From: Alphaproteobacteria bacterium
GTDB taxonomy: Bacteria; Pseudomonadota; Alphaproteobacteria; Bin95
Length of the DNA: 64,000 nucleotides
Assembly: GCA_038102935.1 (NCBI GenBank)
Contig: JAYNYG010000001.1
Span: 35,096 to 99,095 of the forward strand
Reading direction: 5' to 3'
Positions within the stretch are counted from its first letter, which is position 1, and every line of letters begins with the position of its first letter. The position numbers and the translations under genes were made by a program. This document shows positions 8,114-55,612 of the stretch, in pieces. The notes beneath the pieces were generated by a model. It was given only the letters and a program-made list of their open reading frames with translations, was not told the DNA's origin and made no database searches.

Positions 8114-8697
8114 GCGCCTTTCTTCCAGCAGCCTTCCATATGGTCGTCAACCAAGCCCATGGACTGCATGTAAGCATAGCAGATGGTGGGGCCGACGAAG
8201 CGGAAGCCCGCTTTTTTCAACCGCTTCGAAAGCGCTTCCGCCGCAGGCGTTTTGGCAGGAACGTCCACCATCGACTGCGGATGGTTGACGATTGTCTCGC
8301 CATCCACCGTATCCCAGATGAATTTTGAGAAACCGCCAGGCGCCTCATCCATCATCTTCAGCCAGGCTTGCGCATTGGAGATCGTTGATTCGATTTTCAA
8401 CCGGTTGCGGACAATGCCGGTGTCCGCCATCAGCCGGTCGATATCTGATTGATCGAAGCGCGCGATCTTCTCTGGGTCGAAATTCGCGAAAGCAGCACGG
8501 AAGTTTTCACGTTTCCGCAGGATCGTGAGCCAGGACAAGCCCGCCTGAAAACCCTCCAGGCAAAGCTTCTCGAAGAGCTTCCTGTCATCCCGTTGGACAA
8601 CACCCCATTCTTCATCGTGATAGCGCTGGTATTCAGGATCGTCGCCGCACCAGCGGCAACGGTCCTGACCATCCGATCCTGTAATCAGCCCACTCAT
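8110..8697 (-). CDS. tag: DNA-3-methyladenine glycosylase I
   Basis: 195 aa; Zn-binding CxxxC…H…C pattern and the conserved EGFQAGLSWLTIL…FVGPTICYAYMQ regions of Tag. Confidence 0.85.
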   Translation of the reverse strand: MSGLITGSDGQDRCRWCGDDPEYQRYHDEEWGVVQRDDRKLFEKLCLEGFQAGLSWLTILRKRENFRAAFANFDPEKIARFDQSDIDRLMADTGIVRNRLKIESTISNAQAWLKMMDEAPGGFSKFIWDTVDGETIVNHPQSMVDVPAKTPAAEALSKRLKKAGFRFVGPTICYAYMQSMGLVDDHMEGCWKKGA

Positions 8698-43224: not shown

Positions 43225-43578
43225 TTAGTGCATGGCGAAGGCGCTGGCGGGGATGACGCCTTTGAAGGCGCGGCCTTCCGGGCGGACGGGCAGGCCGGTA
43301 TCGACGCGGATGCGGCCCTGGCGGTATTCGGCGTATTGCTCCGCCGCAAGGCGCGGGTCATAGGGGATGGCGGCGTGTTTCCATTCGAAGGCGAAGGCCG
43401 GGGCCGCAGCGTCCTCTGGCGCCTCATCCGCCAGGCGGAAGCCTTGGCCTTCGCGGTCCAGCCAAAGGCCGGCTTCCGCCATACGGGAGAGGATCGTGAC
43501 CGGCTGGCCATTGCTTTCGCCGATGACCGTGCCCGGCCGCATCAACACGCTGAAGGGCGCGCCTTCTTCCGGCGTCAC
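43225..43578 (-). CDS. hypothetical protein (possibly truncated at the island border)
   Basis: 117-aa ORF with high-GC codon usage, abutting the AT-rich island; no recognisable motif. Confidence 0.3.
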   Translation of the reverse strand: MTPEEGAPFSVLMRPGTVIGESNGQPVTILSRMAEAGLWLDREGQGFRLADEAPEDAAAPAFAFEWKHAAIPYDPRLAAEQYAEYRQGRIRVDTGLPVRPEGRAFKGVIPASAFAMH

Positions 43579-43621
43579 TGCCTTCCGGGCAGCTCAACCG
43601 CGCCCGCCATCCTTCTGGGGT

Positions 43622-44020
43622 TAATCCAATAGTACTAATAGCTTTTTTTTATCTTTATTCATTATCTCGGTAAAATCCGGCACTTCTTCGGCGCTAATTA
43701 TTCCTTCGATTACACTTATTGCGCTTCTATCGGATAGCTTTTGTTGCCCTGATTGGGTGCTGTCCTGGCCATTAAGGCCGTCCCACTCGAGGCCATATCT
43801 CGCGACGGTACGAATAAGATTGAATGTTGCATCCGACTCGGTGCCACCGTTAATCGAGATGGCCCCTTCAAACCAAGCTTTAGTGTTCTGATCTAGTCGT
43901 GGTTAAAACCTATTTGCCTTCAAAATATACTCATAAGCTTCGTGATACCCCGCTTCTCCACGGTTAGCTTGTTCAAACAACTGCTTCAGTCGACAAATTT
44001 GGTAATTTGTTAACTTCATT
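43622..44020 (-). pseudogene. degenerate ORF with in-frame TAA (MKLTNYQICRL…ANRF*PRLDQNTKAWFEG…)
   Basis: Own translation of the minus strand: ~130 codons in one frame interrupted by a single TAA; AT-rich; no Met after the stop. Confidence 0.3.
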
Positions 44021-44110
44021 TGGACCGGCATCAGTTTTCACTCTTCATGTTTCGAACGTCCAACCATGAAATAATAGTATTGTTAGCAAACTTGAATGAG
44101 TTATCCACAC

Positions 44111-44644
44111 CTATACTTGGGATAAAGGAAAATAATTATGGCCAGCAAGGTGAAATTTGCTCAAATAAAAATACCCATGGCATCGCGATCCTAAATACAA
44201 AGAGTGCTTGTGCGTGTCACATACTGCAAAATAAGCAATACCCGATTTAGACAAATCATTCACTGCTATCTCAGATAGCTCCACAGTTGCTGGCTTAAAT
44301 ATCTTTGTGCTCGTTCCACTTGCACGTGATTCATAAGGTGATCCTTTTGATACGATTCTATCGACTCGGCTCAATATCTCTGACGAATTCTTGAAATCCA
44401 TTGCATTCCATATGTCGCCGCGTTCATCCATAAACGCAACATACACAATGGAGGAAAATTTGCCCCCTTCAAGATCGGGGCATATTAATGATCGATCAGA
44501 TTCTCTAAACATACCGGCAAGAGGTTGAATGTCAGGCATCCGGAATACCGCTGCAGCCTTAGAATCACCGTATCTAAGGCCACCGGCATTAATGGGAATA
44601 TGTGGCGGAATCATATTTACGTATTTCGTTCGAAGAGGATTCAA
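44111..44644 (-). CDS. hypothetical protein within the AT-rich island
   Basis: 177-aa ORF, AT-rich codon usage unlike the host genome; no recognised domain. Confidence 0.3.
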   Translation of the reverse strand: MNPLRTKYVNMIPPHIPINAGGLRYGDSKAAAVFRMPDIQPLAGMFRESDRSLICPDLEGGKFSSIVYVAFMDERGDIWNAMDFKNSSEILSRVDRIVSKGSPYESRASGTSTKIFKPATVELSEIAVNDLSKSGIAYFAVCDTHKHSLYLGSRCHGYFYLSKFHLAGHNYFPLSQV

Positions 44645-44885
44645 ATATATAATCGGTATTGTTGCTGAGGTTTAGTCAGATAACTTCACCGTTTGCAGTA
44701 ATCCGCGATACCAAGATAGTGCAATCTGATGTTTGTTTAATTCTGAGCGCTCTATGGTTGAACAAGAATTTTCATAATCTGCATAGGCGATTGCCGACCT
44801 GCTTCCGCAGATACATAGGCATGAAAAGACCAAGCATAGGAATATATTCGTCGCGGCCCGAGCTTGCAGACAAATGCTATTCATC

Positions 44886-45240
44886 TCACCGCTCCCTCAA
44901 ACTTTCATCCGCATACCGAAGCAGCGGACTCAGGAAAAACGTTATCGTGCGACTTGCCCCCGTTTTCACTTCCGCAGCCACAGCCATACCAGGCGTCAGT
45001 GGTACCCGACGGCTATCCACCGGTATACTAGTTTCAGCCATGGAGATGCGGGCCTCATACACAAGGCCGCGTTGTTCGTCCTGGATGGCGTCCGCGGAAA
45101 CGCGGAGGACTTTGCCTTTGATGAGGCCGTAGCGGGTGAAGGGGAAGCTTTCCACCTTGATCTCTACCTCCTGACCGGCGCGGACGAACCCTGCGTCCTT
45201 GTTTTGGACGAAAGCTTCAATCTCCAGGCCGCCTTCGGCG
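44886..45240 (-). pseudogene. HlyD-family type I secretion membrane-fusion protein, C-terminal fragment only
   Basis: Translation …GGLEIEAFVQNKDAGFVRAGQEVEIKVESFPFTRYGLIKGKVLRVSADAIQDEQRGLVYEARISMAE…LSPLLRYADESLRER closely parallels the E. coli HlyD C-terminus (…VEAFPYTRYGYLVGKVKNINLDAIEDQRLGLVFNVIISIEE…LSPLEESVTESLRER). An in-frame TAG lies upstream and the N-terminal ~350 aa are absent. Confidence 0.7.
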
Positions 45241-45458
45241 GGCCAATGCTATCGTTTCCCTGGCAGCAACACCGGGTCCGCCGGGTTGACCACTGCGCCC
45301 AATGAAGAGACCTAAAGGTGTAGAACGATACCGTTGCTGAATCCCAAGTGCAACGATAGAGACTTCAAGCTCTTTTGCGTGTGCGCCTACGTCTTCCAGA
45401 CATTCAACAGTTATAATAATCTTTGTCCTAACTTTGTACGCTAACGGAGACTCACCTC

Positions 45459-46505
45459 ATGACCCTCGCCGCACAGACCTATGACATCGCTGATATGGCG
45501 ACGGCGCAGGAGTATTATCATAGTCGTGGGTGGACGGATGGGCTGCCTATCGTGCCGCCGACGGCGGAGGCCGTGCAGGCCTGTCTTGAATGGGCGATGA
45601 TGACGCCGGATCAGCTTGTGGGCGTAGAGCCCGTGCGGGAACGGGCGATTACGGCGGAGAAATTGGCGATCAATGCTGTCATGGCTGGGTGCCTGCCGAT
45701 GCACTTTCCCGTGGTCGTCGCGGCGTTCACGGCGATGCTGCAGGAGCCGTTTTTGATGCATGGGGCGACGGCCAGCACGGGCGGGTGTGCAGTGCTGATC
45801 GTCATCAACGGGCCTGTCCGCAAGGAACTCGGCATGAGTGGGCAGTTCAACGCCATCGGCTCCAGCGACCGGGCGACGTCTGTTATCGGGCGGGCGATCC
45901 GGCTGACGATGATCAACCTGATGGATGTGCGCCCCGGCCATATTGACCGATCTACGCTCGGCCATCCGGGCAAGTTCAGTTATTGCATCGCGGAGGATGA
46001 GGAAAACTCAGCGTGGCTGCCGCTCGCCGAAGAGCGGGATTGCCCGCCGGGCGCATCCTCCGTCACCGTGATGGCCGCGATGGCGCCGCGTCAGCTTATG
46101 AATGAGTGGACGACCGAGCCAGAGCAAATTCTGGATACGTTTGCTGCTGAAATCAAAGCGAATATGCGGCATTACTCGATCTGGCCTGGCAACTACGCCA
46201 TCGTCATAGCACCCCAACTTCGCACGCATTTCGAGAAGGCTGGATGGTCCAAGGCGGATGTCAGGCGCTATGTGTTTGAGAAAGCGCGTATCCTCAGGAA
46301 AGAATGGGCGGATGTCGGTAAAGCCTCCGTTGTCAAGCGGCGCGGCGATCAGGAATATGCGGCATTGCCGGATGAAGATCACCTGTTGGTCATCGCTGCT
46401 GGCGGCCCCGCCGGCGGGTTCGGCGCTGTTATCCCGCCCTGGCTTGGTCATAAAAGCCGGGCCGTCACAATCCCCATCGGCGTATGCGTCGATTGTGAAA
46501 TTTAG
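45459..46505 (+). CDS. conserved protein of unknown function, UGSC-selenoprotein-associated (paralog 1)
   Basis: 348 aa; shares GWTDGLP(I/V)VPPT, AINAVMAGCLP(M/E)(H/Y)FPVV, HG(A/S)TASTGG, GMxxxxNxxGxxNRAxxxIGRAxRL, GHPGK(F/Y)SYCIAE, AGWSKAD and C-terminal CVDCEI/CIDCD blocks with 48032..49111 and 20512..21966. Confidence 0.6.
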   Translation: MTLAAQTYDIADMATAQEYYHSRGWTDGLPIVPPTAEAVQACLEWAMMTPDQLVGVEPVRERAITAEKLAINAVMAGCLPMHFPVVVAAFTAMLQEPFLMHGATASTGGCAVLIVINGPVRKELGMSGQFNAIGSSDRATSVIGRAIRLTMINLMDVRPGHIDRSTLGHPGKFSYCIAEDEENSAWLPLAEERDCPPGASSVTVMAAMAPRQLMNEWTTEPEQILDTFAAEIKANMRHYSIWPGNYAIVIAPQLRTHFEKAGWSKADVRRYVFEKARILRKEWADVGKASVVKRRGDQEYAALPDEDHLLVIAAGGPAGGFGAVIPPWLGHKSRAVTIPIGVCVDCEI

Positions 46506-46525
46506 AGAATGGAGAGCTAGAGACA

Positions 46526-47047
46526 TTGCAAGTTCTTGATCCAACCCATGAAGCCGATGTGGTGGGGCTCGTGCCGCCGCCGAGGCTGGACACGCTGGCG
46601 GGCAAAACCGTCGGCGTGATCTCAAACGGCAAGGAGGGCACCAAGCGCTTCTTCGCTGCGATTGAGGCTGAGCTGCGCGAGACCCACGGTGTCGCCGATG
46701 TCGTATGGCGCACCAAAGGCAATTATTCCGCGCCGGCGCCAGAAGCCATCATGGCGGAGGCGGCAGGCTGGGACGCCATCATCTCCGGGGTTGGGGATTG
46801 AGGCAGCTGCTCGTCGTGCAGTTTGCATGACGCAGTGGCTGGCGAACGGATGGGCGTGCCCTCTGCGGGCGTTATGACCGTGCCGTTTTCAGATGCGGCA
46901 GACCTGATGGCCCGCGTGCTCGGCGCGGAAGACTTCCCGTTTGTGGTAATCGACCACCCGATCAGCAGCGCCTCTGAAGAGGCGTTGCGGGAGCAAGCGA
47001 AAACCGCTGTGGCGCAGAGCGTCGCGATCCTGACGAAAGCGGCCTAG
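46526..47047 (+). CDS. UGSC-family selenoprotein (in-frame TGA at 46799..46801 read as Sec; 173 aa)
   Basis: Track ORFs 46526..46801 and 46823..47047 are in the same frame separated only by TGA. The context is …ISGVGD-U-GSCSSCSLHD… (a U-G-S-C UxxC motif). A paralog at 49127..49648 has identical architecture, and a hairpin lies directly 3' of the UGA. TTG start. Confidence 0.6.
46802..46832 (+). promoter_or_regulatory. putative bacterial SECIS hairpin immediately 3' of UGA
   Basis: GGCAGCUGC[UCGUCGU]GCAGUUUGC is an 8-bp stem (one bulge) with a 7-nt G/U-containing loop. The paralog has GGCAGUUGC[UCAACGU]GCAGUUUGC, where the C→U change keeps pairing (U·G). Confidence 0.45.
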
Positions 47048-47071
47048 AGCATCCGGGGCGACCGGCGGGGG

Positions 47072-47914
47072 CTAGCTCCGCCGGTGGCCTTTGTTGTCTG
47101 CGCCCGCGAACAGTACGGATTCTCGGCGTTCAACATCCCTAGCGACGGCTGCCAAGTCTTCGTCCAGAAGTGTTCCCTTGGGCGGATCCGTCAGCGTGAA
47201 ATGGCCGTACCGGTCTTCACCTGCAACGAGCGTCACTTCCGTTTCAGGGCCAGACTGCGCCTTCATGCTCGGCTTGATGTAGCGGATGGCGGCGCCGAGT
47301 CTCCGATCATCTGTAGTGTTTGGGCCCGAGGCGTGGAACAAATGGCCATGATGCATCGAGGCTTGGCCGGTCTTGAGCGCAGCATCGACGGCGTCTTCTT
47401 CCCGCACGTCCACCTGCAGTTCCTGGCCGCGCGTCAATAGATTTTCCGCGTTGAAGCTATCTGCATGGGGCTGGATACGCTCGCGATGGCTGCCGGGCAC
47501 GAAGCGCATGCATCCGGCCTCGACGCTGGCAGGCGATAGCGCCACCCAGATCGTCACTTCGTCAGGCTCATCCAGGCCCCAATATGTGAGATCTTGGTGC
47601 CAGCTCACATAATTTGGCGTGTTCGCTTCCTTGATGAACATGCTGGAATTCCAGACCAGCAGGTCCGGCCCAAGCACCGCAGAGGCTGCGGCGATCATGT
47701 TGGGGTGGCGGATCAAGGCGTCGAAGGAGGGCATCAAACGCGCTGGAAAACCGCGGGCCATGGCCCGCTTCTTTGGATCATCCGCGTATTTCGCTTCTGC
47801 GGCTTCCAGGTCATTTCGTAGGGTTTGCGCTTCATCAGCCGACAGAATGTCCAGCGGGAATACGAAGCCGTCACGTGCGTAATCCGCCGCGACTTGAGAG
47901 GAGATGCTGTTCAT
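47072..47914 (-). CDS. phytanoyl-CoA dioxygenase (PhyH)-family Fe(II)/2OG oxygenase
   Basis: 280 aa; PhyH-type WHQDLTYW motif and double-stranded beta-helix His/Asp…His ligands (H…D at WHQD, later HHGHLFH). Confidence 0.8.
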   Translation of the reverse strand: MNSISSQVAADYARDGFVFPLDILSADEAQTLRNDLEAAEAKYADDPKKRAMARGFPARLMPSFDALIRHPNMIAAASAVLGPDLLVWNSSMFIKEANTPNYVSWHQDLTYWGLDEPDEVTIWVALSPASVEAGCMRFVPGSHRERIQPHADSFNAENLLTRGQELQVDVREEDAVDAALKTGQASMHHGHLFHASGPNTTDDRRLGAAIRYIKPSMKAQSGPETEVTLVAGEDRYGHFTLTDPPKGTLLDEDLAAVARDVERRESVLFAGADNKGHRRS

Positions 47915-48031
47915 AGCGATATCCTAAACTTGGCCGCCGGAGAGGGGAAGATGGCAGGCCGCATCAATTTTCTTCAACGTTTGCGCTGCTCTGGGCTACA
48001 CTCAGCCCGAAACGGGTGAGGGGATAGGGCG

Positions 48032-49111
48032 ATGCCACGGGATTCGGCGCGCATCCATGACGTGCCAGACGATCTGCTAGCTGCGATGGATTACTGCTAT
48101 GAGCAGGGCTGGACGGACGGTTTACCCGTCGTCCCGCCGGTGACGGATCGCGTTGAAGCGATGATGATGTATGAGGGCCGCCCGCCTGAAACCGTCATCG
48201 CATTGCATCCTGCGACCGGCCTGGAATGTACAATCCATGCGGCGGCTGTTAACGCCGTTATGGCTGGCTGCCTGCCGGAATACTTCCCTGTTATCGTCGC
48301 GGCGTTCGAAGCGATGCACGAGCCAGATTTCAATTTCCACGGCTCGACAGCAAGCACGGGCGGATCAGCGCCATTGCTGATTGTCAGCGGCGGCGTGGCG
48401 GACGAAATCGGTATGAATTCTGACGTGAACCTGTTCGGCCCCGGCAACCGCGCCAACGCGACGATTGGGCGTGCGACGCGGCTTATTCTGCGGAACGTAT
48501 TTCAGATGATCCCTGGAATTTCCGATAAATCCACCCAGGGTAATCCGAACAAATACAGCTTCTGCATCGCGGAGCGGGCGCGGGATAACCCATGGCCGCT
48601 TTTGGTCGAGACGTTGGATTACCCGGAGGGTGTCAGCAGCGTGACGGCCTATGCTGGCGGCGGGTTTTTCAATGTCGAGAACCATGGTGGCGCGACGCCG
48701 GAAGCTGTTTTAAGCTCATTCGCGGATACGATGGCGGGCCTCGGCGTATTGACCCTTGGCCAATCTGTCATTGTGTTGTCGCCAGAGCATATGCGCATCC
48801 TAGGCAATGCCGGGTGGACGCGCGAGAATGCGCAGGATTATCTGTTCGAGAACGCTAGGCGGAGCCGTGCAGATATGGAAACTGCCGGGAAATTCCGGGA
48901 GCGCGACTACGCCCGGCAGCGCGACCCAGCAGTCAAGAGCTCGCTCTTGCATGACGGTTATATGCATCGCGGCATCAGCCCCGCAGACATCCTGATCATC
49001 ATGGGCGGCGGCGATGCGGGCGGCCATTCCAGCTTCATTCCATCATGGAGCCGGGCGCGGAGTTCGCTGATGCAGTCGAAACCCATCGGCGTTTGTATTG
49101 ATTGCGATTGA
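48032..49111 (+). CDS. conserved protein of unknown function, UGSC-selenoprotein-associated (paralog 2)
   Basis: 359 aa; same conserved blocks as 45459..46505. Confidence 0.6.
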   Translation: MPRDSARIHDVPDDLLAAMDYCYEQGWTDGLPVVPPVTDRVEAMMMYEGRPPETVIALHPATGLECTIHAAAVNAVMAGCLPEYFPVIVAAFEAMHEPDFNFHGSTASTGGSAPLLIVSGGVADEIGMNSDVNLFGPGNRANATIGRATRLILRNVFQMIPGISDKSTQGNPNKYSFCIAERARDNPWPLLVETLDYPEGVSSVTAYAGGGFFNVENHGGATPEAVLSSFADTMAGLGVLTLGQSVIVLSPEHMRILGNAGWTRENAQDYLFENARRSRADMETAGKFRERDYARQRDPAVKSSLLHDGYMHRGISPADILIIMGGGDAGGHSSFIPSWSRARSSLMQSKPIGVCIDCD

Positions 49112-49126
49112 TTGGAGACGTCAGAC

Positions 49127-49648
49127 ATGCAGCTTTATGATCCCACTGTAACGGGGCCAGACCGGCAGAGCCGCCGCGCGCCGCCGCTCGCCTCGCTTGA
49201 GGGGCTGACTGTCGGTTATCTTGAAAACGGCAAGCTGAACGCAACCAACATGTTGCGGGAAACGGCGGAAGTATTCGTCGCCCGTCATGGCTGCCAAATA
49301 GGCCCTGTCTATTCGAAGTTTAACGCCAGCGCGCCAGCGCCAGAAGCCACATTGCGCTTGGCTGCGGACGAAGTCGATTTTCTGATAACCGGGCTCGGTG
49401 ATTGAGGCAGTTGCTCAACGTGCAGTTTGCATGATGGCGTCAGCTTCGAACAACTCGGCAAACGGGCGATTGTGGTTTGTACAGAGCCTTTTGAGGTGAC
49501 GGCGAAGAACATCGCCCGCATGCTCGGCCTGCCGGATTATCCGTTTGTGATGGTTGAGCATCCGTTAGGCAGCCGCTCATTGAATGAAGTTAAGGTGCTT
49601 GCCGAACACGCCTATCAACAATCCCTGCCAATACTCCTGGAGGCATAG
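49127..49648 (+). CDS. UGSC-family selenoprotein, second copy (in-frame TGA at 49403..49405; 173 aa)
   Basis: Track ORFs 49112..49405 and 49427..49648 are in frame across a single TGA; context …ITGLGD-U-GSCSTCSLHD…. Start taken at ATG (MQLYDPT), homologous to MQVLDPT of copy 1; identical length to copy 1. Confidence 0.6.
49406..49436 (+). promoter_or_regulatory. putative SECIS hairpin 3' of UGA (copy 2)
   Basis: GGCAGUUGCUCAACGUGCAGUUUGC folds like the copy-1 element; nucleotide conservation exceeds that of the rest of the two genes. Confidence 0.45.
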
Positions 49649-49656
49649 ACGACGCC

Positions 49657-50793
49657 GTGGGTGAGATTATTACAGATATCAGATTGATCGGCGTCCGCGT
49701 GTCGCCGAAGACAGCATGGCTTTTTGTTGAATTGACAGGCGGTAGCGGCCTCCAAGGCTTTGGCGAGGGCACGCTGAACGGCAAGGAAGAGGCGGTCGCC
49801 AAGGCGGCGGAAGGTTTTGGCCGCAACGTCCTTGGCCAAGATGCCGGGGATGCTGCGGGCCTTTCTCGGTTGCTGCCGTTCGGTGCTTTGCATGAGGCCG
49901 CGTTCTCGTCCGCAGTCTTGCAGGCGGCAGCGGATTTGGATGCGCGTTCCCGTGGCATTTGCTTAGCGGAGGCGCTTGGCGGATCAACCCGGTCAGAGAT
50001 CGGTCTCTACGCCAATATTAATCGGCGGACTGAAGACCGGTCGCATGAAGGCTTCGCAGCCAGCGCCAAGGCCGCCAGGGACGCAGGCTATAGCGCCTTC
50101 AAGATCGCGCCCTTTGATACCGCTGCGCCGGATATGCCGCCGGGACAGTGGCGCCCGCTTGTCGAGGCTGGGCTGCGGCGCATCGGCGCCGTCCGTGAAG
50201 TTATCGGACCAGATGCGCGTTTGATGGTCGATTGCCATTGGCGCTTCTCTGAACCAACGGCCTCATGGGTTCTAGATGCTGTCGAGCCGTTTGATCTCTA
50301 TTGGTTCGAATGCCCGATCCCGCGCGAAAACATAGCGCTTGGCGCGTTGATGCGGTTGCGGTCACAAGCCAATGCGCTGGGCGTGCGGTTAGCTGGCGCT
50401 GAAACGGGCATCAAGCTGGCCGGGTTCGAGCCGATGCTCAAAGCCGGCGCCTATGACGTGATGATGCCGGATGTGAAATATGCTGGCGGGCCTGCCGAAA
50501 TGATGCGGATCGCCGAAGCCTTCTCCGCCCATGACGTGACGTTCTCGCCCCATAATCCGAGCGGACCCATCTGCCATGCGGCGTCAATGCAAATTTGCGC
50601 CGCAGCTGAGAATTCTGATCTGCTGGAAGTGCAATATGACGAGACGCCAGTCTTCCAAGCGCTAGTCGATAATTCGATGCCTGCAATCACAGGCGGGACT
50701 GCGCCATTGCCCGGTGGTGTAGGTATCGGCGTTAGTTTGAATGTCGATCTTTTGGCGAGCTTGGAGCCTGCAACAGCTTGGCAAGCCAGATAG
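49657..50793 (+). CDS. enolase-superfamily enzyme (mandelate racemase/muconate lactonizing enzyme family)
   Basis: 378 aa; MR/MLE N-terminal capping domain and TIM-barrel with metal-ligand D/E/D region (…MVDCHWRF…, …DLYWFECP…, …MMPDVKYAGG…); GTG start. Confidence 0.8.
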   Translation: MGEIITDIRLIGVRVSPKTAWLFVELTGGSGLQGFGEGTLNGKEEAVAKAAEGFGRNVLGQDAGDAAGLSRLLPFGALHEAAFSSAVLQAAADLDARSRGICLAEALGGSTRSEIGLYANINRRTEDRSHEGFAASAKAARDAGYSAFKIAPFDTAAPDMPPGQWRPLVEAGLRRIGAVREVIGPDARLMVDCHWRFSEPTASWVLDAVEPFDLYWFECPIPRENIALGALMRLRSQANALGVRLAGAETGIKLAGFEPMLKAGAYDVMMPDVKYAGGPAEMMRIAEAFSAHDVTFSPHNPSGPICHAASMQICAAAENSDLLEVQYDETPVFQALVDNSMPAITGGTAPLPGGVGIGVSLNVDLLASLEPATAWQAR

Positions 50794-50860
50794 GACCGGA
50801 TAATCTTTGCAATAACAGGCGTTCGCCTCAAATGAGACGCCAAATCTGCCCGGGAGCTCG

Positions 50861-51823
50861 TTGATGGATCAACCGATCAAACAGTTCGATGGAATGACAG
50901 TGTCGCCGCTTGGCGCCGCGCCATTTGGAAAAGAAATTTCGGGCCTGAAGCCCCGCGTGATGACCGAAGCGCAACGCGCCGCGATCCTGGAAGCATACCG
51001 GGACGGCCACGGCCTTCTGTGCTTCCAGTTCGAGGCGATGCTCGAAGAAGATGAACTGCACGCGATGACATCCGTATTCGGCGAAAATGAATTCGCGCCC
51101 GGCTTGATCAATGGCATTGGCAAGAAAGCCTTGCCCGGCGAAGAGCATCTGACTGTCGAAGATCAGGTTGCTGCGCATCAGGCAAACGGGCGCGACCCTT
51201 ACCTGGCCTATATCGGCAATGTCGATCCCAAGTCGCTTGCGGTCGAGAAGACGCCAGATAAGTTCTTTGGCGAATGGGAATGGCATACGGATATGTCATA
51301 CATTCCGACCCCGCCGACCTTCAGTTTGCTGCACGCTCGAATTATTCCCGAAGAGGGCGGTGATACAGGGTTCTGTAGCCAGGTAATGGCGGCGCAAGCC
51401 TTACCGGCGGACCTCCGGCGTAAAATCCTGCCATTGCAGATCAAACATGACTCCACCTACGCCAGCAACGGCTTGTTGCGGCCAGGCATGTCTGTCCCGG
51501 ACTCGCCGATTGAGGCGATTGGGCATCCACATCCGATCATTCGCAAAGTGCCCTCAACCGGCGATGAGGCGCTTTTCCTTGGCCGCCGCACAAACGCGTA
51601 TGTGGTGGGGCTGCCGCTGGACGAAAGCGAGGCGCTCTTGGATGAGTTGTGGGCGCACGCCACTAAGCCAGAGTTCCAATATCATCACAATTGGACCGTC
51701 GGTCAGGTTGTCGCCTGGGACAATCGGATGATGTTGCACATGCGTAGCCCCGTCGATACGTCCAAGGCCCGGTTCATGTGGCGGACACAGACGAAGGGTG
51801 AAGGCGTCGTATCGGCGGCGTAA
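50861..51823 (+). CDS. TauD/TfdA-family Fe(II)/2-oxoglutarate dioxygenase
   Basis: WHTDMSY…D and C-terminal H (…AWDNRMMLH…R) motifs. Confidence 0.8.
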   Translation: MMDQPIKQFDGMTVSPLGAAPFGKEISGLKPRVMTEAQRAAILEAYRDGHGLLCFQFEAMLEEDELHAMTSVFGENEFAPGLINGIGKKALPGEEHLTVEDQVAAHQANGRDPYLAYIGNVDPKSLAVEKTPDKFFGEWEWHTDMSYIPTPPTFSLLHARIIPEEGGDTGFCSQVMAAQALPADLRRKILPLQIKHDSTYASNGLLRPGMSVPDSPIEAIGHPHPIIRKVPSTGDEALFLGRRTNAYVVGLPLDESEALLDELWAHATKPEFQYHHNWTVGQVVAWDNRMMLHMRSPVDTSKARFMWRTQTKGEGVVSAA

Positions 51824-51918
51824 GCCTGCCAGAGAATACAAGACGTTTTTCGAGGCTCTGTCCTGAGCAATAGCGGAGTCTACCTACGCTCAAGGATAGG
51901 GCGTTAAGAGGACTTCGC

Positions 51919-53481
<1,563 letters not shown>

Positions 53482-54952: not shown

Positions 54953-55612
54953 TCAGGCGAGCGAGGCTACGTCTGCGACCGTCTTGGACGGTTCGGGACG
55001 GCTTGTATAGTCGGCGTCGATATCGGTCATGCGGACGATGCCGGATGTGTCGACAACGATCCGAGCCGGGATCGGAAGGGTCCAAGTGTCGTCGCCATTG
55101 AACTTCGGCAGATTGAGGCCAAAGCCGTTGTAGATTTCCTTCACGGCGTCTGGCACTTCAAAGCGCAGGCCAAGTTCCGCCGCGTAGGCGTTGCCCGGAT
55201 CGCTCAGCAAGTGGAAATTCAACGTATTCTTTACCGCCATTTCCTGATTGTGTTCAGGCATTTGCGGCGTGAGCGCTACGATAGTTGCGCCATATTGGGC
55301 GAGGTCGTCAGCCACTGCTTGCAAAGCATACAGCTCTGCGTTGCAGTAGGGTCACCAAACGCCGCGAAATACAGATACAACGAGCGGGCCTTGGCTCAGC
55401 AAGTCTGCCGAATGGACCTGGACGCCATTGGCATTGTCCAGGCTGAAATCGGGCAGCGAGTCGCCGACTTTGATTGTGTGATCGAGGACGCCGGAATTCC
55501 GTTGATCTTCCGTCGCCTGTTTCATAATGGCGCGTTTGTAGGGCGGAATGCGTTTGGACGAGGCCTCGCGCATTTCCGCCAATTGGGCTTCAAGTGTCAT
55601 GGTAGCTCCCAC
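54953..55612 (-). CDS. AhpC/TSA (peroxiredoxin-like redoxin) family selenoprotein candidate, in-frame TGA at 55352..55354 (complement); 219 aa
   Basis: Track ORFs 55352..55612 and 54953..55324 are co-directional and in frame (660 nt total). My translation across the junction gives …VVSVFRGVW-U-PYCNAEL…, so the TGA occupies the first Cys of the redoxin W-C-P-Y-C motif. Confidence 0.5.
55300..55351 (-). promoter_or_regulatory. possible SECIS-like hairpin 3' of the UGA in the Prx-like gene
   Basis: mRNA UGA-CCCUACUGCAACGCAGAGCUGUAUGCUUUGCAAGCAGUGGC contains CUGC…GCAG and UGCUU[UGC]AAGCA pairings; the fold is less clear than for the UGSC genes. Confidence 0.25.

What the first reader, a model, noticed from the sequence alone, without database searches (positions are those of the whole stretch)
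45459..49648. Two paralogous gene pairs each ending in a UGSC-type selenoprotein with an in-frame TGA and a conserved post-UGA hairpin
In both pairs a ~350-aa protein of unknown family is followed by a small gene whose reading frame is interrupted only by TGA.
- Positions: the TGA is at D-U-G-S-C-S-(S/T)-C (46799..46801 and 49403..49405).
- Frame: the downstream 70+ codons are in frame and conserved between the two copies.
- Length and start: both full-length products are 173 aa and begin MQ(V/L)(L/Y)DPT.
- Hairpin: the 25 nt after each TGA are more conserved at nucleotide level than the rest of the genes and fold into an 8-bp stem with a 7-nt loop; a C→U change still pairs (U·G).
U-G-S-C is a UxxC redox motif, so this looks like Sec-dependent redox chemistry attached to an uncharacterised enzyme family. 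The UGSC (seleno)protein family is named in databases, but its function and its obligate partner are undescribed.
Basis: partly seen in the sequence, partly recalled or inferred. Interest (0 to 1): 0.8.

Follow-up and report, generated by a model that had tools for sequence, protein, structure and literature searches.

The report
Two UGSC selenoprotein–partner gene pairs
The window holds two copies of a widespread two-gene unit, a protein from a large family with no database entry followed by a known "UGSC" selenocysteine protein of unknown function; the selenoprotein is already known, but its near-constant pairing with this partner gives a way to test what it does.

Summary
Both small genes are UGSC-family selenoprotein genes (Pfam PF24696). 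Each has an in-frame TGA at the stated position, and translation continues for 81 conserved codons.

In 86 of 86 UGSC genes next to partner homologs, from many phyla, the TGA sits at the same codon. Cys-containing homologs also exist. tRNA-Sec, selA and selB lie beside the module in several relatives. The window itself has no sel genes, but it does contain a third selenoprotein gene.

The conserved SECIS is an fdhF-like stem-loop, nt 17-22 paired with 26-31 counted from the U of UGA, with G23 and U24 in the loop. Compensatory changes support it, and the Ser codon AGU in the loop is invariant.

The roughly 350-aa partner belongs to a very large family (about 6,000 clusters at 50% identity) with no Pfam, NCBIfam or PDB match. 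A UGSC gene lies within 3 kb in 74 of 76 loci that can be judged. The partner is often fused to UGSC, and sometimes to peroxiredoxin-like or ferredoxin-thioredoxin-reductase domains.

The UGSC model is flavodoxin-like, not thioredoxin-like. Most likely the pair is a two-subunit selenol/thiol-dependent reductase with an unknown substrate. The selenoprotein family is known; the partner module is effectively undescribed.

The parts
45459..46505 (+). Partner 1: 348-aa protein of a large family with no database entry. Conserved residues: C78, H101, S106, R138, R145, C176, E179 and a C-terminal C343-x-D-C346.
   Evidence: ORF. No Pfam, NCBIfam or PDB-sequence hit. More than 7,000 homologs and 5,990 clusters at 50% identity. 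Conserved residues.
46526..47047 (+). UGSC selenoprotein gene 1: TTG start, 173 aa including Sec92. It begins 20 nt after the partner 1 stop codon.
   Evidence: Translation. PF24696 at E 1.4e-48; NF041046 at 126.9 bits against a cut-off of 125.
46799..46801 (+). In-frame TGA, the Sec codon of UGSC1.
   Evidence: The same codon is TGA in 86/86 homologous genes and Cys in Cys-type homologs.
46812..46832 (+). Bacterial SECIS hairpin of UGSC1: nt 14-34 from the U of UGA. The core stem 17-22/26-31 lies at 46815-46829, with apical loop G23 U24 U25.
   Evidence: RNAfold. Pair counts on 78 homologs: the core is essentially always paired, with compensatory changes at 18-30, 19-29 and 21-27. The AGU codon is invariant, 81/81.
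47061..47085 (+). Terminator-like GC-rich hairpin with a T-run, just after the UGSC1 stop at 47047.
   Evidence: It fits a gene that ends at 47047 rather than at the TGA at 46801.
47072..47914 (-). PhyH-family dioxygenase gene between the two pairs, convergent with pair 1. Context only.
   Evidence: ORF. The orthologous gene in L001-L004 is annotated PF05721 PhyH.
48032..49111 (+). Partner 2: 359-aa paralog, 37% identical to partner 1.
49127..49648 (+). UGSC selenoprotein gene 2: ATG start, 173 aa including Sec93. It begins 15 nt after the partner 2 stop codon.
   Evidence: Translation. PF24696 at E 2.4e-44; NF041046 at 112.4 bits, below the equivalog cut-off of 125.
49403..49405 (+). In-frame TGA, the Sec codon of UGSC2.
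49416..49436 (+). Bacterial SECIS hairpin of UGSC2. The core stem lies at 49419-49433, with loop G23 U24 U25.
49657..53481 (+). Downstream context genes: an enolase-superfamily gene (MR_MLE), a TauD-family dioxygenase gene and an AMP-binding ligase gene.
   Evidence: ORFs; Pfam labels from the orthologous genes in L001-L004. Low-identity (26-33%) PhyH, TauD and MR_MLE matches recur near type-2 pairs in L075 and L076.

Best explanation
Each pair is one copy of a conserved two-gene module that most likely encodes a heteromeric selenol/thiol-dependent reductase.

Shown:
- The small gene is a UGSC-family selenoprotein. Its UGA is decoded as selenocysteine through an fdhF-like SECIS hairpin placed so that G23 and U24, counted from the U of UGA, sit in the apical loop.
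- The protein model is a flavodoxin/Rossmann-like (beta-alpha)5 domain. The Sec/Cys lies at the end of strand 3, with the resolving Cys three residues later at the start of helix 3 (G-D-U-G-S-C-S).
- The ~350-aa partner is a family with no database entry. It has two nearly invariant cysteines (C78, C176) plus R138, R145 and E179.
- A UGSC gene is encoded within 3 kb of it almost everywhere, the two have co-diverged, and they are often fused.

Inferred:
- UGSC cycles between a selenol/thiol form and a selenenylsulfide form (U92-C95). It delivers reducing equivalents to, or completes the active site of, the partner. The partner binds an unknown, probably anionic, small substrate.
- UGSC is re-reduced by a thioredoxin-reductase-like flavoprotein, a thioredoxin-fold protein or a ferredoxin-thioredoxin-reductase-like module.
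- The two diverged pairs in this window are substrate-specific paralogs sitting in a catabolic gene island.
For: Sec decoding:
- PF24696 and NF041046 hits.
- TGA at the same codon in 86/86 genes from Alpha-, Beta- and Gammaproteobacteria, Acidimicrobiia, Chloroflexota, Acidobacteriota, Dormibacterota and Myxococcota, each followed by at least 79 in-frame codons.
- Cys homologs align at the U position.
- SECIS core pairs 17-31 to 22-26 are paired in 467 of 468 cells, with GC/GU/AU, UA/GU/AU and CG/GC exchanges.
- The Ser codon in the loop is AGU in 81/81 genes, against 6.9% AGU among other Ser codons in the same genes. The Cys codon in the stem is only ever UGC, although TGT is used elsewhere in the same genes.
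- A terminator-like hairpin follows the full-length stop codon.
- tRNA-Sec lies about 0.2-1 kb from UGSC in L057, L067 and L083.
- L057 reads partner, UGSC, TrxR-like gene, tRNA-Sec, selA, selB. selA or selB also lie nearby in L036, L052, L054 and L055.
- A third Sec gene lies in this window.

Module:
- UGSC lies within 3 kb of the partner in 74 of 76 loci that can be judged, usually 10-170 nt downstream on the same strand.
- Cys-type UGSC genes sit directly upstream of partner homologs that are 36% identical to partner 1.
- Of 53 long family representatives, 28 carry a UGSC domain, 5 an AhpC/Redoxin domain and 2 an FTR-beta domain. One carries UGSC, partner and FTR-beta together.
- Partner and UGSC identity matrices correlate at r=0.93, against a permutation maximum of 0.16.
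- No other neighbour is conserved.

Fold and donor:
- A TrxR-like gene lies next to the module in L057, L055 and L051.
Against: - No substrate, activity or physical interaction has been shown.
- Whether C78 and C176 are close in space could not be checked.
- The C-terminal CxxC of the partner is present in only 55 of 79 pairs. C78 or C176 is replaced in a few lineages.
- Two loci, L016 and L065, have a partner gene with no UGSC within 6 kb.
- The mirror-tree correlation is inflated by shared species phylogeny.
- The window's own genome could not be checked for selA, selB, selC or selD.
Confidence: 0.6

Rival explanations
1. Glycine/proline-reductase-like chemistry. The UGSC selenol is itself the catalytic nucleophile. 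It attacks a substrate held by the partner and cleaves a C-N, C-S or C-O bond reductively, as GrdB and PrdB do with GrdE and PrdA. UGSC would then be more than an electron carrier.
For: - The window copies read U-x-x-C-x-x-C, the motif reported for GrdB/F/H.
- PrdB with U changed to C is inactive, which shows how such enzymes depend on Sec.
- Sec forms greatly outnumbered Cys forms of UGSC in ocean metagenomes, 255 to 21 (PMC2398784).
- UGSC has many invariant polar residues besides U and C: N34, K36, K64, D91, D102, E107, H144.
- The fold is not thioredoxin-like.
- Several co-diverged paralogous pairs per genome resemble the substrate-specific GrdB/E, GrdF/G and GrdH/I sets.
- In P0263 an FTR-like domain sits alongside UGSC rather than replacing it.
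Against: - No match to PF07355 (GRDB), even at E<=10, in 26 UGSC sequences.
- The partner matches no Pfam family at all, so it shows no Pfam-detectable similarity to any described reductase subunit.
- The partner's HGxTASTGG motif, a candidate self-cleavage site, is not conserved across the family.
- The third Cys is explained by the SECIS stem: its UGC codon pairs with GCA. It is Ser in Cys-type homologs, which lack a SECIS. The UxxCxxC resemblance is therefore probably driven by the RNA.
Confidence: 0.22
2. The module acts in selenium or sulfur handling itself, for example reducing or trafficking selenite, selenide or persulfide for SelD, rather than in catabolism. That would explain why it sits next to sel genes.
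For: - tRNA-Sec, selA and selB adjoin the module in several genomes.
- A NifS-like cysteine desulfurase (or selenocysteine-lyase-like) gene lies beside tRNA-Sec in L067 and L083.
Against: - Selenoprotein genes often lie next to sel genes simply because the trait is transferred together (general knowledge).
- Most loci have no sel gene within 6 kb.
- Cys-type modules lie among alcohol dehydrogenase, SDR, amidohydrolase and ABC-transporter genes.
- The structural hits are at noise level on a low-confidence model.
Confidence: 0.08
3. The TGAs are genuine stop codons or disabling mutations. Each 'gene' would then be two unrelated short ORFs or a pseudogene.
For: Gene callers split the genes at the TGA in every public record examined. 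The window contains no Sec machinery.
Against: - TGA is at the same codon in 86/86 genes across phyla, with the downstream frame and peptide conserved.
- The Pfam model spans both halves.
- Full-length Cys homologs exist.
- The SECIS is conserved, with compensatory changes and a fixed rare codon.
- sel genes are adjacent in relatives.
Confidence: 0.02

Closest known systems
UGSC-containing selenoprotein family (Pfam PF24696; NCBIfam NF041046). Listed in 2007 as occurring in Hyphomonas neptunium, and described as a major selenoprotein family in ocean metagenomes.
   Same: Both small genes match the family models. They carry Sec in G-D-U-G-S-C at the family position and have the family length.
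   Different: Nothing essential differs; these are ordinary members. The published guess of a thioredoxin-like fold (PMC2398784) is not borne out by the model, which is flavodoxin-like. Copy 2 scores below the NCBIfam equivalog cut-off.
E. coli fdhF-type bacterial SECIS
   Same: A hairpin immediately 3' of the UGA inside the coding region, with G23 and U24 (numbered from the U of UGA) in a small apical loop closed by a ...UGCA/UGCA... stem. The comparison with the fdhF sequence and numbering rests on my own knowledge; the structure and its conservation are.
   Different: The loop is 3 nt (G-U-N), not 4. No bulged U equivalent to fdhF U17 was identified. The lower stem is only partly conserved (65-91% paired). 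No Rfam family matches.
Glycine/sarcosine/betaine reductase protein B (GrdB/F/H with GrdE/G/I) and D-proline reductase (PrdB with PrdA)
   Same: A Sec-containing subunit is encoded next to, and works with, a second substrate-binding subunit. The motif is UxxCxxC. A thioredoxin-type system is the likely reductant. Several substrate-specific paralogous pairs can occur per genome.
   Different: - No detectable sequence homology of UGSC to PF07355.
- The partner matches no Pfam family and has no conserved self-cleavage motif.
- The third Cys is attributable to the SECIS RNA.
- The hosts are mostly marine, freshwater and soil lineages rather than the amino-acid-fermenting clostridia in which Grd and Prd are known (lifestyle from general knowledge).
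Thioredoxin-fold UxxC/CxxC oxidoreductases with their client enzymes (for example Trx with methionine sulfoxide reductase or peroxiredoxin)
   Same: A UxxC dyad sits at the N-terminus of a helix. The client (partner) is found fused to alternative disulfide-reducing modules (Redoxin/AhpC, FTR-beta), as is typical of thiol-relay systems.
   Different: The UGSC fold is a parallel (beta-alpha)5 sandwich, not a thioredoxin fold. UGSC is dedicated to a single partner family rather than acting as a general reductant.

Membership tests
UGSC family (PF24696 / NF041046) | Match to the family profile above its curated threshold | tested here: met
   Pfam: 165.7 and 151.9 bits against a cut-off of 25. NCBIfam: copy 1 scores 126.9 against 125; copy 2 scores 112.4, below the equivalog cut-off.
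UGSC family (PF24696 / NF041046) | Sec (or Cys) in the G-D-(U/C)-G-S-C motif at the conserved position of a ~170-185-aa protein | tested here: met
   G90, D91, U/C92, G93, S94, C95 and S96 are invariant in the alignments.
Bacterial selenoprotein gene (SelB/SECIS-dependent UGA recoding) | In-frame UGA aligned with Cys in homologs, with the downstream peptide conserved in frame | tested here: met
   86/86 genes. Cys homologs include P0122, P0151 and P0359-P0474.
Bacterial selenoprotein gene (SelB/SECIS-dependent UGA recoding) | Stem-loop directly 3' of the UGA with a conserved G (and U) in a small apical loop at the right distance | tested here: met
Stem 17-22/26-31 with loop G23 U24 N25. Four pairs show changes on both sides; AGU is invariant.
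Bacterial selenoprotein gene (SelB/SECIS-dependent UGA recoding) | selA, selB, selC (tRNA-Sec) and selD present in the same genome | not testable with these tools
   None are in the 64-kb window, and the source genome could not be identified. Indirect support: tRNA-Sec, selA and selB lie next to the module in L036, L052, L054, L055, L057, L067 and L083, and a third Sec gene lies in the window.
Bacterial selenoprotein gene (SelB/SECIS-dependent UGA recoding) | Selenium demonstrably incorporated into the protein | not testable with these tools
   Needs 75Se labelling or mass spectrometry.
GrdB/PrdB selenoprotein B family (PF07355) | Sequence homology to the GRDB profile | tested here: not met
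   No PF07355 hit at E<=10 in any of 26 UGSC sequences.
GrdB/PrdB selenoprotein B family (PF07355) | UxxCxxC motif | tested here: inconclusive
   The motif is present in both window copies. However, the third Cys codon forms part of the SECIS stem, and that residue is Ser in Cys-type homologs.
GrdB/PrdB selenoprotein B family (PF07355) | Partner subunit is a self-cleaving pyruvoyl proenzyme (GrdE/PrdA type) | tested here: not met
   The partner has no Pfam hit. The candidate HGxTASTGG site is not conserved family-wide.
Thioredoxin-fold oxidoreductases | Thioredoxin fold | tested here: not met

The most novel reading that the evidence does not exclude
UGSC and its ~350-aa partner form a previously unrecognised class of two-subunit, selenium-dependent reductase. 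It would be widespread across marine, freshwater and soil bacterial lineages. The partner would be the substrate-binding subunit, with a fold that has no solved relative. Co-diverged paralogous pairs, such as the two here, would each be specific for a different small organic substrate. The system would be analogous to, but evolutionarily independent of, the clostridial glycine and proline reductases.
Probability: 0.3. Interest if true: 0.8.

Novelty: new member of a known kind. Interest (0 to 1): 0.5.

Why it matters
[quoted passage not shown] A 2026 review still groups it with selenoproteins whose biological functions remain largely uncharacterised.

This work shows that UGSC almost always comes with one specific partner from a huge family that has no database entry. 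It also shows that the fold is not thioredoxin-like, and that a thioredoxin-reductase-like gene and the sel genes can sit beside the module. Together these turn an orphan selenoprotein into a defined two-protein system that can be co-expressed, modelled as a complex and screened for substrates.

The SECIS analysis also carries a general warning. Part of the apparent active-site motif (C98, H101) is conserved because of the RNA structure, not because of protein chemistry.

Tried and rejected
1. Rejected because three of its pairs fail in 27-30 of 78 homologs and it shows no excess covariation.
3. Homology of UGSC to GrdB/PrdB. No PF07355 hit, and the PDB profile search returned only weak, unrelated hits. 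The AFDB libraries that could have held PrdB or GrdB models were not available.
4. The partner as a pyruvoyl proenzyme. The HGxTASTGG motif is not conserved family-wide.
5. The partner as an Fe-S protein. Only two Cys are conserved across the family, and the CxxC tail is missing in about a third of pairs.
7. A conserved third gene or pathway around the module. There is none: the next-best neighbour clusters occur in only 12-15 of 80 loci, and the genes inserted between partner and UGSC in L038 and L045 are unrelated.
8. A link between loss of UGSC C98 and loss of partner C176. Seen in 3 of 4 cases, but with too few independent events, and Cys-type pairs contradict it.
9. Rfam. No SECIS or other family matched.
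10. Exact-sequence look-up of partner 1 to identify the source genome. Not on record.
11. Handing my UGSC alignment of locus translations to the structure predictor. A Cys homolog, P0122, was modelled instead.


Full report
**Observation**

- Partner 1 (45459..46505, 348 aa) is followed after 20 nt by an ORF starting at TTG 46526. Apart from one TGA at 46799-46801, it runs in frame to the stop at 47047.
- Partner 2 (48032..49111, 359 aa) is followed after 15 nt by an ORF starting at ATG 49127, with one TGA at 49403-49405 and a stop at 49648.
- Both products are 173 aa counting the TGA as a residue. They begin MQVLDPT and MQLYDPT and carry ...G-D-U-G-S-C-S-(S/T)-C-S-L-H-D....
- The partners are 37% identical to each other.
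- The 33 nt starting at the TGA are 29/33 identical between the copies, against about 50% for the rest of the genes. This is the best-conserved window of that length.

**What the small genes are**

Both match the Pfam "UGSC family" model PF24696 across the whole length, on both sides of the TGA (E 1.4e-48 and 2.4e-44). They also match NCBIfam NF041046, "UGSC family (seleno)protein". Copy 1 is just above that model's equivalog cut-off and copy 2 is below it.

The family is known from the literature. [quoted passage not shown] A 2008 ocean-metagenome study found it among the most abundant selenoprotein families, with 255 Sec forms and 21 Cys forms, guessed a thioredoxin-like fold, and noted a fusion to an unnamed domain, "Unknown_1". 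A 2026 review still groups it with selenoproteins whose biological functions remain largely uncharacterised.

**Is the TGA really Sec?**

I scanned one genome per species for relatives of the partner and obtained 80 loci. They come from Alpha-, Beta- and Gammaproteobacteria, Acidimicrobiia, Chloroflexota, Acidobacteriota, Dormibacterota and Myxococcota.
- In these loci, the four close relatives and the window, all 86 UGSC genes have TGA at exactly this codon. Each is followed by G-S-C-... and at least 79 further sense codons in frame.
- Full-length homologs with Cys at this position exist in number.
- A terminator-like hairpin sits just after the full-length stop of copy 1.
- ARAGORN found five tRNA genes in about 1.07 Mb of fetched DNA. 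Three are tRNA-Sec, and each lies about 0.2-1 kb from a UGSC gene (L057, L067, L083).
- In L057 the gene order is partner, UGSC, thioredoxin-reductase-like flavoprotein, tRNA-Sec, selA, selB. The selA and selB matches are well above their curated cut-offs.
- selA or selB are also near the module in L036, L052, L054 and L055.

The window itself has no tRNA and no sel gene, and I could not identify its genome. Against that, the window holds a third gene with an in-frame TGA. It is a peroxiredoxin-like protein reading ...FRGVW-U-PYC... at 54953..55612 on the minus strand, with a strong hairpin after the UGA.

**The SECIS**

Instead it gives a stem whose conserved core is C17-G18-U19-G20-C21-A22 paired with U26-G27-C28-A29-U30-G31. 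The loop is G23-U24-N25, numbered from the U of UGA.

On an ungapped alignment of 78 distinct sequences:
- The six core pairs are formed in 467 of 468 cells.
- Exchanges occur at 18-30 (GC, GU, AU), 19-29 (UA, GU, AU), 20-28 (GC, GU) and 21-27 (CG, GC).
- Sliding the 3' partners by one to three columns drops pairing from 91% to 8-47%.

Codon usage gives independent evidence of selection on the RNA.
- The Ser codon that supplies A22-G23-U24 is AGU in 81 of 81 genes. Only 6.9% of other Ser codons in the same genes are AGU.
- The Cys codon in the stem is only ever UGC, and the next codon is NUG in 79 of 81.

From my own knowledge, the E. coli fdhF SECIS also has G23 and U24 in the apical loop, closed by a UGCA/UGCA stem. 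This element is therefore of the classical type.

One consequence follows. The third Cys (C98) and H101 are encoded by the two arms of the stem. Where C98 changes to Gly, Ser or Trp, residue 100 or 101 changes so that the pairs are kept. In Cys-type homologs, which need no SECIS, this segment reads C-G-S-C-S-A-S-A-V-A-D, with neither residue present. The protein-level motif is therefore G-D-(U/C)-G-S-C-S, and the "UxxCxxC" appearance is largely imposed by the RNA.

**The partner**

It has no hit in Pfam or NCBIfam, even at permissive thresholds and over 67 diverse members. It has no sequence relative in the PDB. Yet the family is very large: more than 7,000 hits in one search, and 5,990 clusters at 50% identity (1,585 of them below E 1e-30) in an exhaustive one.

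Across the family, C78 (in A-G-C-x-P), C176 (in C-I-A-E), R138, R145, N153, E179 and W186 are at least 90% conserved. The C-terminal C-x-D-C is present in only 55 of 79 pairs.

The structure model came from an 8-sequence alignment and is mediocre (pLDDT 65, pTM 0.73). It found no convincing solved relative.
- Foldseek's best hit was the "Toblerone-fold" cyclic amide hydrolases (E 0.011, TM 0.25).

I treat the partner's fold as unassigned.

**Partner and UGSC belong together**

- Of the 80 loci, four end at the partner gene. Of the other 76, 74 have a UGSC gene within 3 kb, usually 10-170 nt downstream on the same strand. Two loci, L016 and L065, have none within 6 kb.
- No other gene is conserved around the pair.
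- Cys-type UGSC genes from other lineages sit immediately upstream of partner homologs that are 36% identical to partner 1. The pairing therefore survives a change of gene order and of Sec to Cys.
- Among 53 long representatives of the partner family, 28 carry a UGSC domain at either end, and several are cut at the TGA by gene callers. Five carry an AhpC/Redoxin domain and two a ferredoxin-thioredoxin-reductase catalytic domain. One carries UGSC, partner and the FTR domain together.
- Single-ORF Sec-UGSC-partner fusions occur in L074 and L077.
- Pairwise identities of partners and of their UGSC proteins correlate at r=0.93. Shared phylogeny contributes, but the two window pairs each group with their own type.

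**UGSC fold**

I modelled a Cys homolog 55% identical to copy 1, using 121 sequences. The model has pLDDT 92.4 and is a (beta-alpha)5 three-layer sandwich. The Sec/Cys lies at the end of strand 3 and the second Cys in the first turn of helix 3.

Invariant polar residues are N34, K36, K64, D91, D102, E107 and H144. From the topology, I infer that they line the C-terminal edge of the sheet around the Sec.

**How it most likely works**

The alternative fusions to disulfide-reducing modules, the UxxC dyad, the two conserved partner cysteines and the neighbouring TrxR-like genes all point to thiol/selenol redox chemistry.

I commit to a heteromeric reductase, with these inferred steps:
1. Electrons flow from NAD(P)H or ferredoxin through a TrxR-like, Trx-fold or FTR-like donor.
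2. They pass to the U92-C95 selenenylsulfide of UGSC.
3. From there they reach the partner's C78/C176 site, where an unknown, probably anionic, substrate binds (R138, R145, E179).

The main rival is that the selenol attacks the substrate directly, as in the glycine and proline reductases. That rival is weakened by the lack of any profile match to GrdB, by the partner matching no Pfam family, and by the RNA origin of the third Cys. It is not excluded. Sec forms predominate, UGSC has a rich set of invariant residues, and co-diverged paralogous pairs per genome recall the GrdB/E, GrdF/G and GrdH/I sets.

A role in selenium handling itself, suggested by the adjacent sel genes, is less likely. Reading the TGAs as true stop codons is contradicted by the data.

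**Context of the two copies**

In the closest relatives (94% identity, L001-L004) the same arrangement recurs: pair 1, a convergent PhyH dioxygenase gene, pair 2, then genes for an enolase-superfamily protein, a TauD dioxygenase and an AMP-binding ligase. Low-identity PhyH, TauD and MR_MLE genes also lie near type-2 pairs in two gammaproteobacterial MAGs. This fits substrate-specific paralogs in a catabolic island, but it does not identify a substrate.

**Verdict**

The selenoprotein reading is correct, but it concerns a known family. The hairpin needed correcting. The partner family and the two-gene module are effectively undescribed, apart from a 2008 note of a fusion, and they are the part worth pursuing.

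Noticed in passing
window 54953..55612 (minus strand); TGA at 55352-55354: A third selenoprotein gene: a peroxiredoxin-like (AhpC/TSA) protein with an in-frame TGA in ...VVSVFRGVW-U-PYCNAEL.... A stable hairpin follows the UGA (-20.3 kcal/mol, z = -2.8, apical loop UGUAU). Gene callers split it into 82-86-aa and 120-123-aa pieces in relatives L001-L003.
   Followed up: partly
window about 43500..45300: A low-GC island (40-50% GC against 60-66% around it) directly upstream of partner 1, with no convincing long ORF. It includes an 89-aa ORF (44886..45155, minus strand) that I read by eye as a C-terminal fragment of a HlyD-type secretion adaptor; I did not test this. In the close relatives L001-L004 this position is instead occupied by copper-resistance genes (cupredoxin, multicopper oxidase, CopB).
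   Followed up: partly
L057 7605..12053; also L036, L051, L052, L054, L055, L067, L083: Sec-decoding genes lie next to the partner-UGSC module. L057 has a TrxR-like flavoprotein gene, tRNA-Sec (8536-8631), selA and selB directly downstream of UGSC. tRNA-Sec with a NifS-like desulfurase gene lies beside UGSC in the Dehalococcoidia MAGs L067 and L083. The TrxR-like gene recurs in L055 (Sheuella amnicola NBD-18, a cultured isolate) and L051.
   Followed up: partly
alignment A3 (54 nt from the UGA, 78 homologs); window 46814-46831 and 49418-49435: The SECIS stem forces coupled amino-acid changes. Cys98 to Gly or Ser goes with His101 to Leu (pair 19-29 changes from U-A to G-U or A-U). Cys98 to Trp goes with Leu100 to Ile (pair 21-27 changes from C-G to G-C). 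Cys-type homologs, which have no SECIS, have Ser and Ala at these positions. The 'SSCSLH' conservation is therefore RNA-driven rather than catalytic.
   Followed up: yes
L074 923.. and L077 1304.. (Dormibacterota and Acidobacteriota MAGs): Single-ORF fusions of Sec-UGSC and partner, about 535 aa with the TGA read through. The UGSC part reads A-D-U-G-S-C-T-S-W. The partner part has Ala in place of C78 and lacks the C-terminal CxxC. Each of these loci also carries a second, unfused pair.
   Followed up: partly
proteins P0121 and P0193: P0121 has Arg (G-V-G-D-R-G-S-C-S-S-C) where other family members have Sec or Cys; I suspect a TGA-to-CGA change or a sequencing error. P0193 is a frameshifted read-through of a UGSC gene. 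Both look like artefacts or decayed copies.
   Followed up: no
L085-L089 (Cys-type UGSC loci): Around the Cys-type pairs the context is partly conserved. A Zn-dependent alcohol dehydrogenase gene lies directly upstream in four of the five loci, and an SBP_bac_5 ABC transporter gene lies nearby in all five. Amidohydrolase_2 and SDR genes occur in most. A small 78-86-aa ORF directly after the partner was called in L085 and L089 only, and it was not examined.
   Followed up: no
L016 6001..7059 and L065: Two partner genes have no UGSC gene within 6 kb. In L016 a response-regulator-like ORF follows the partner (my reading by eye; I did not test this). Either UGSC is encoded elsewhere in these MAGs or the partner can work without it.
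   Followed up: partly
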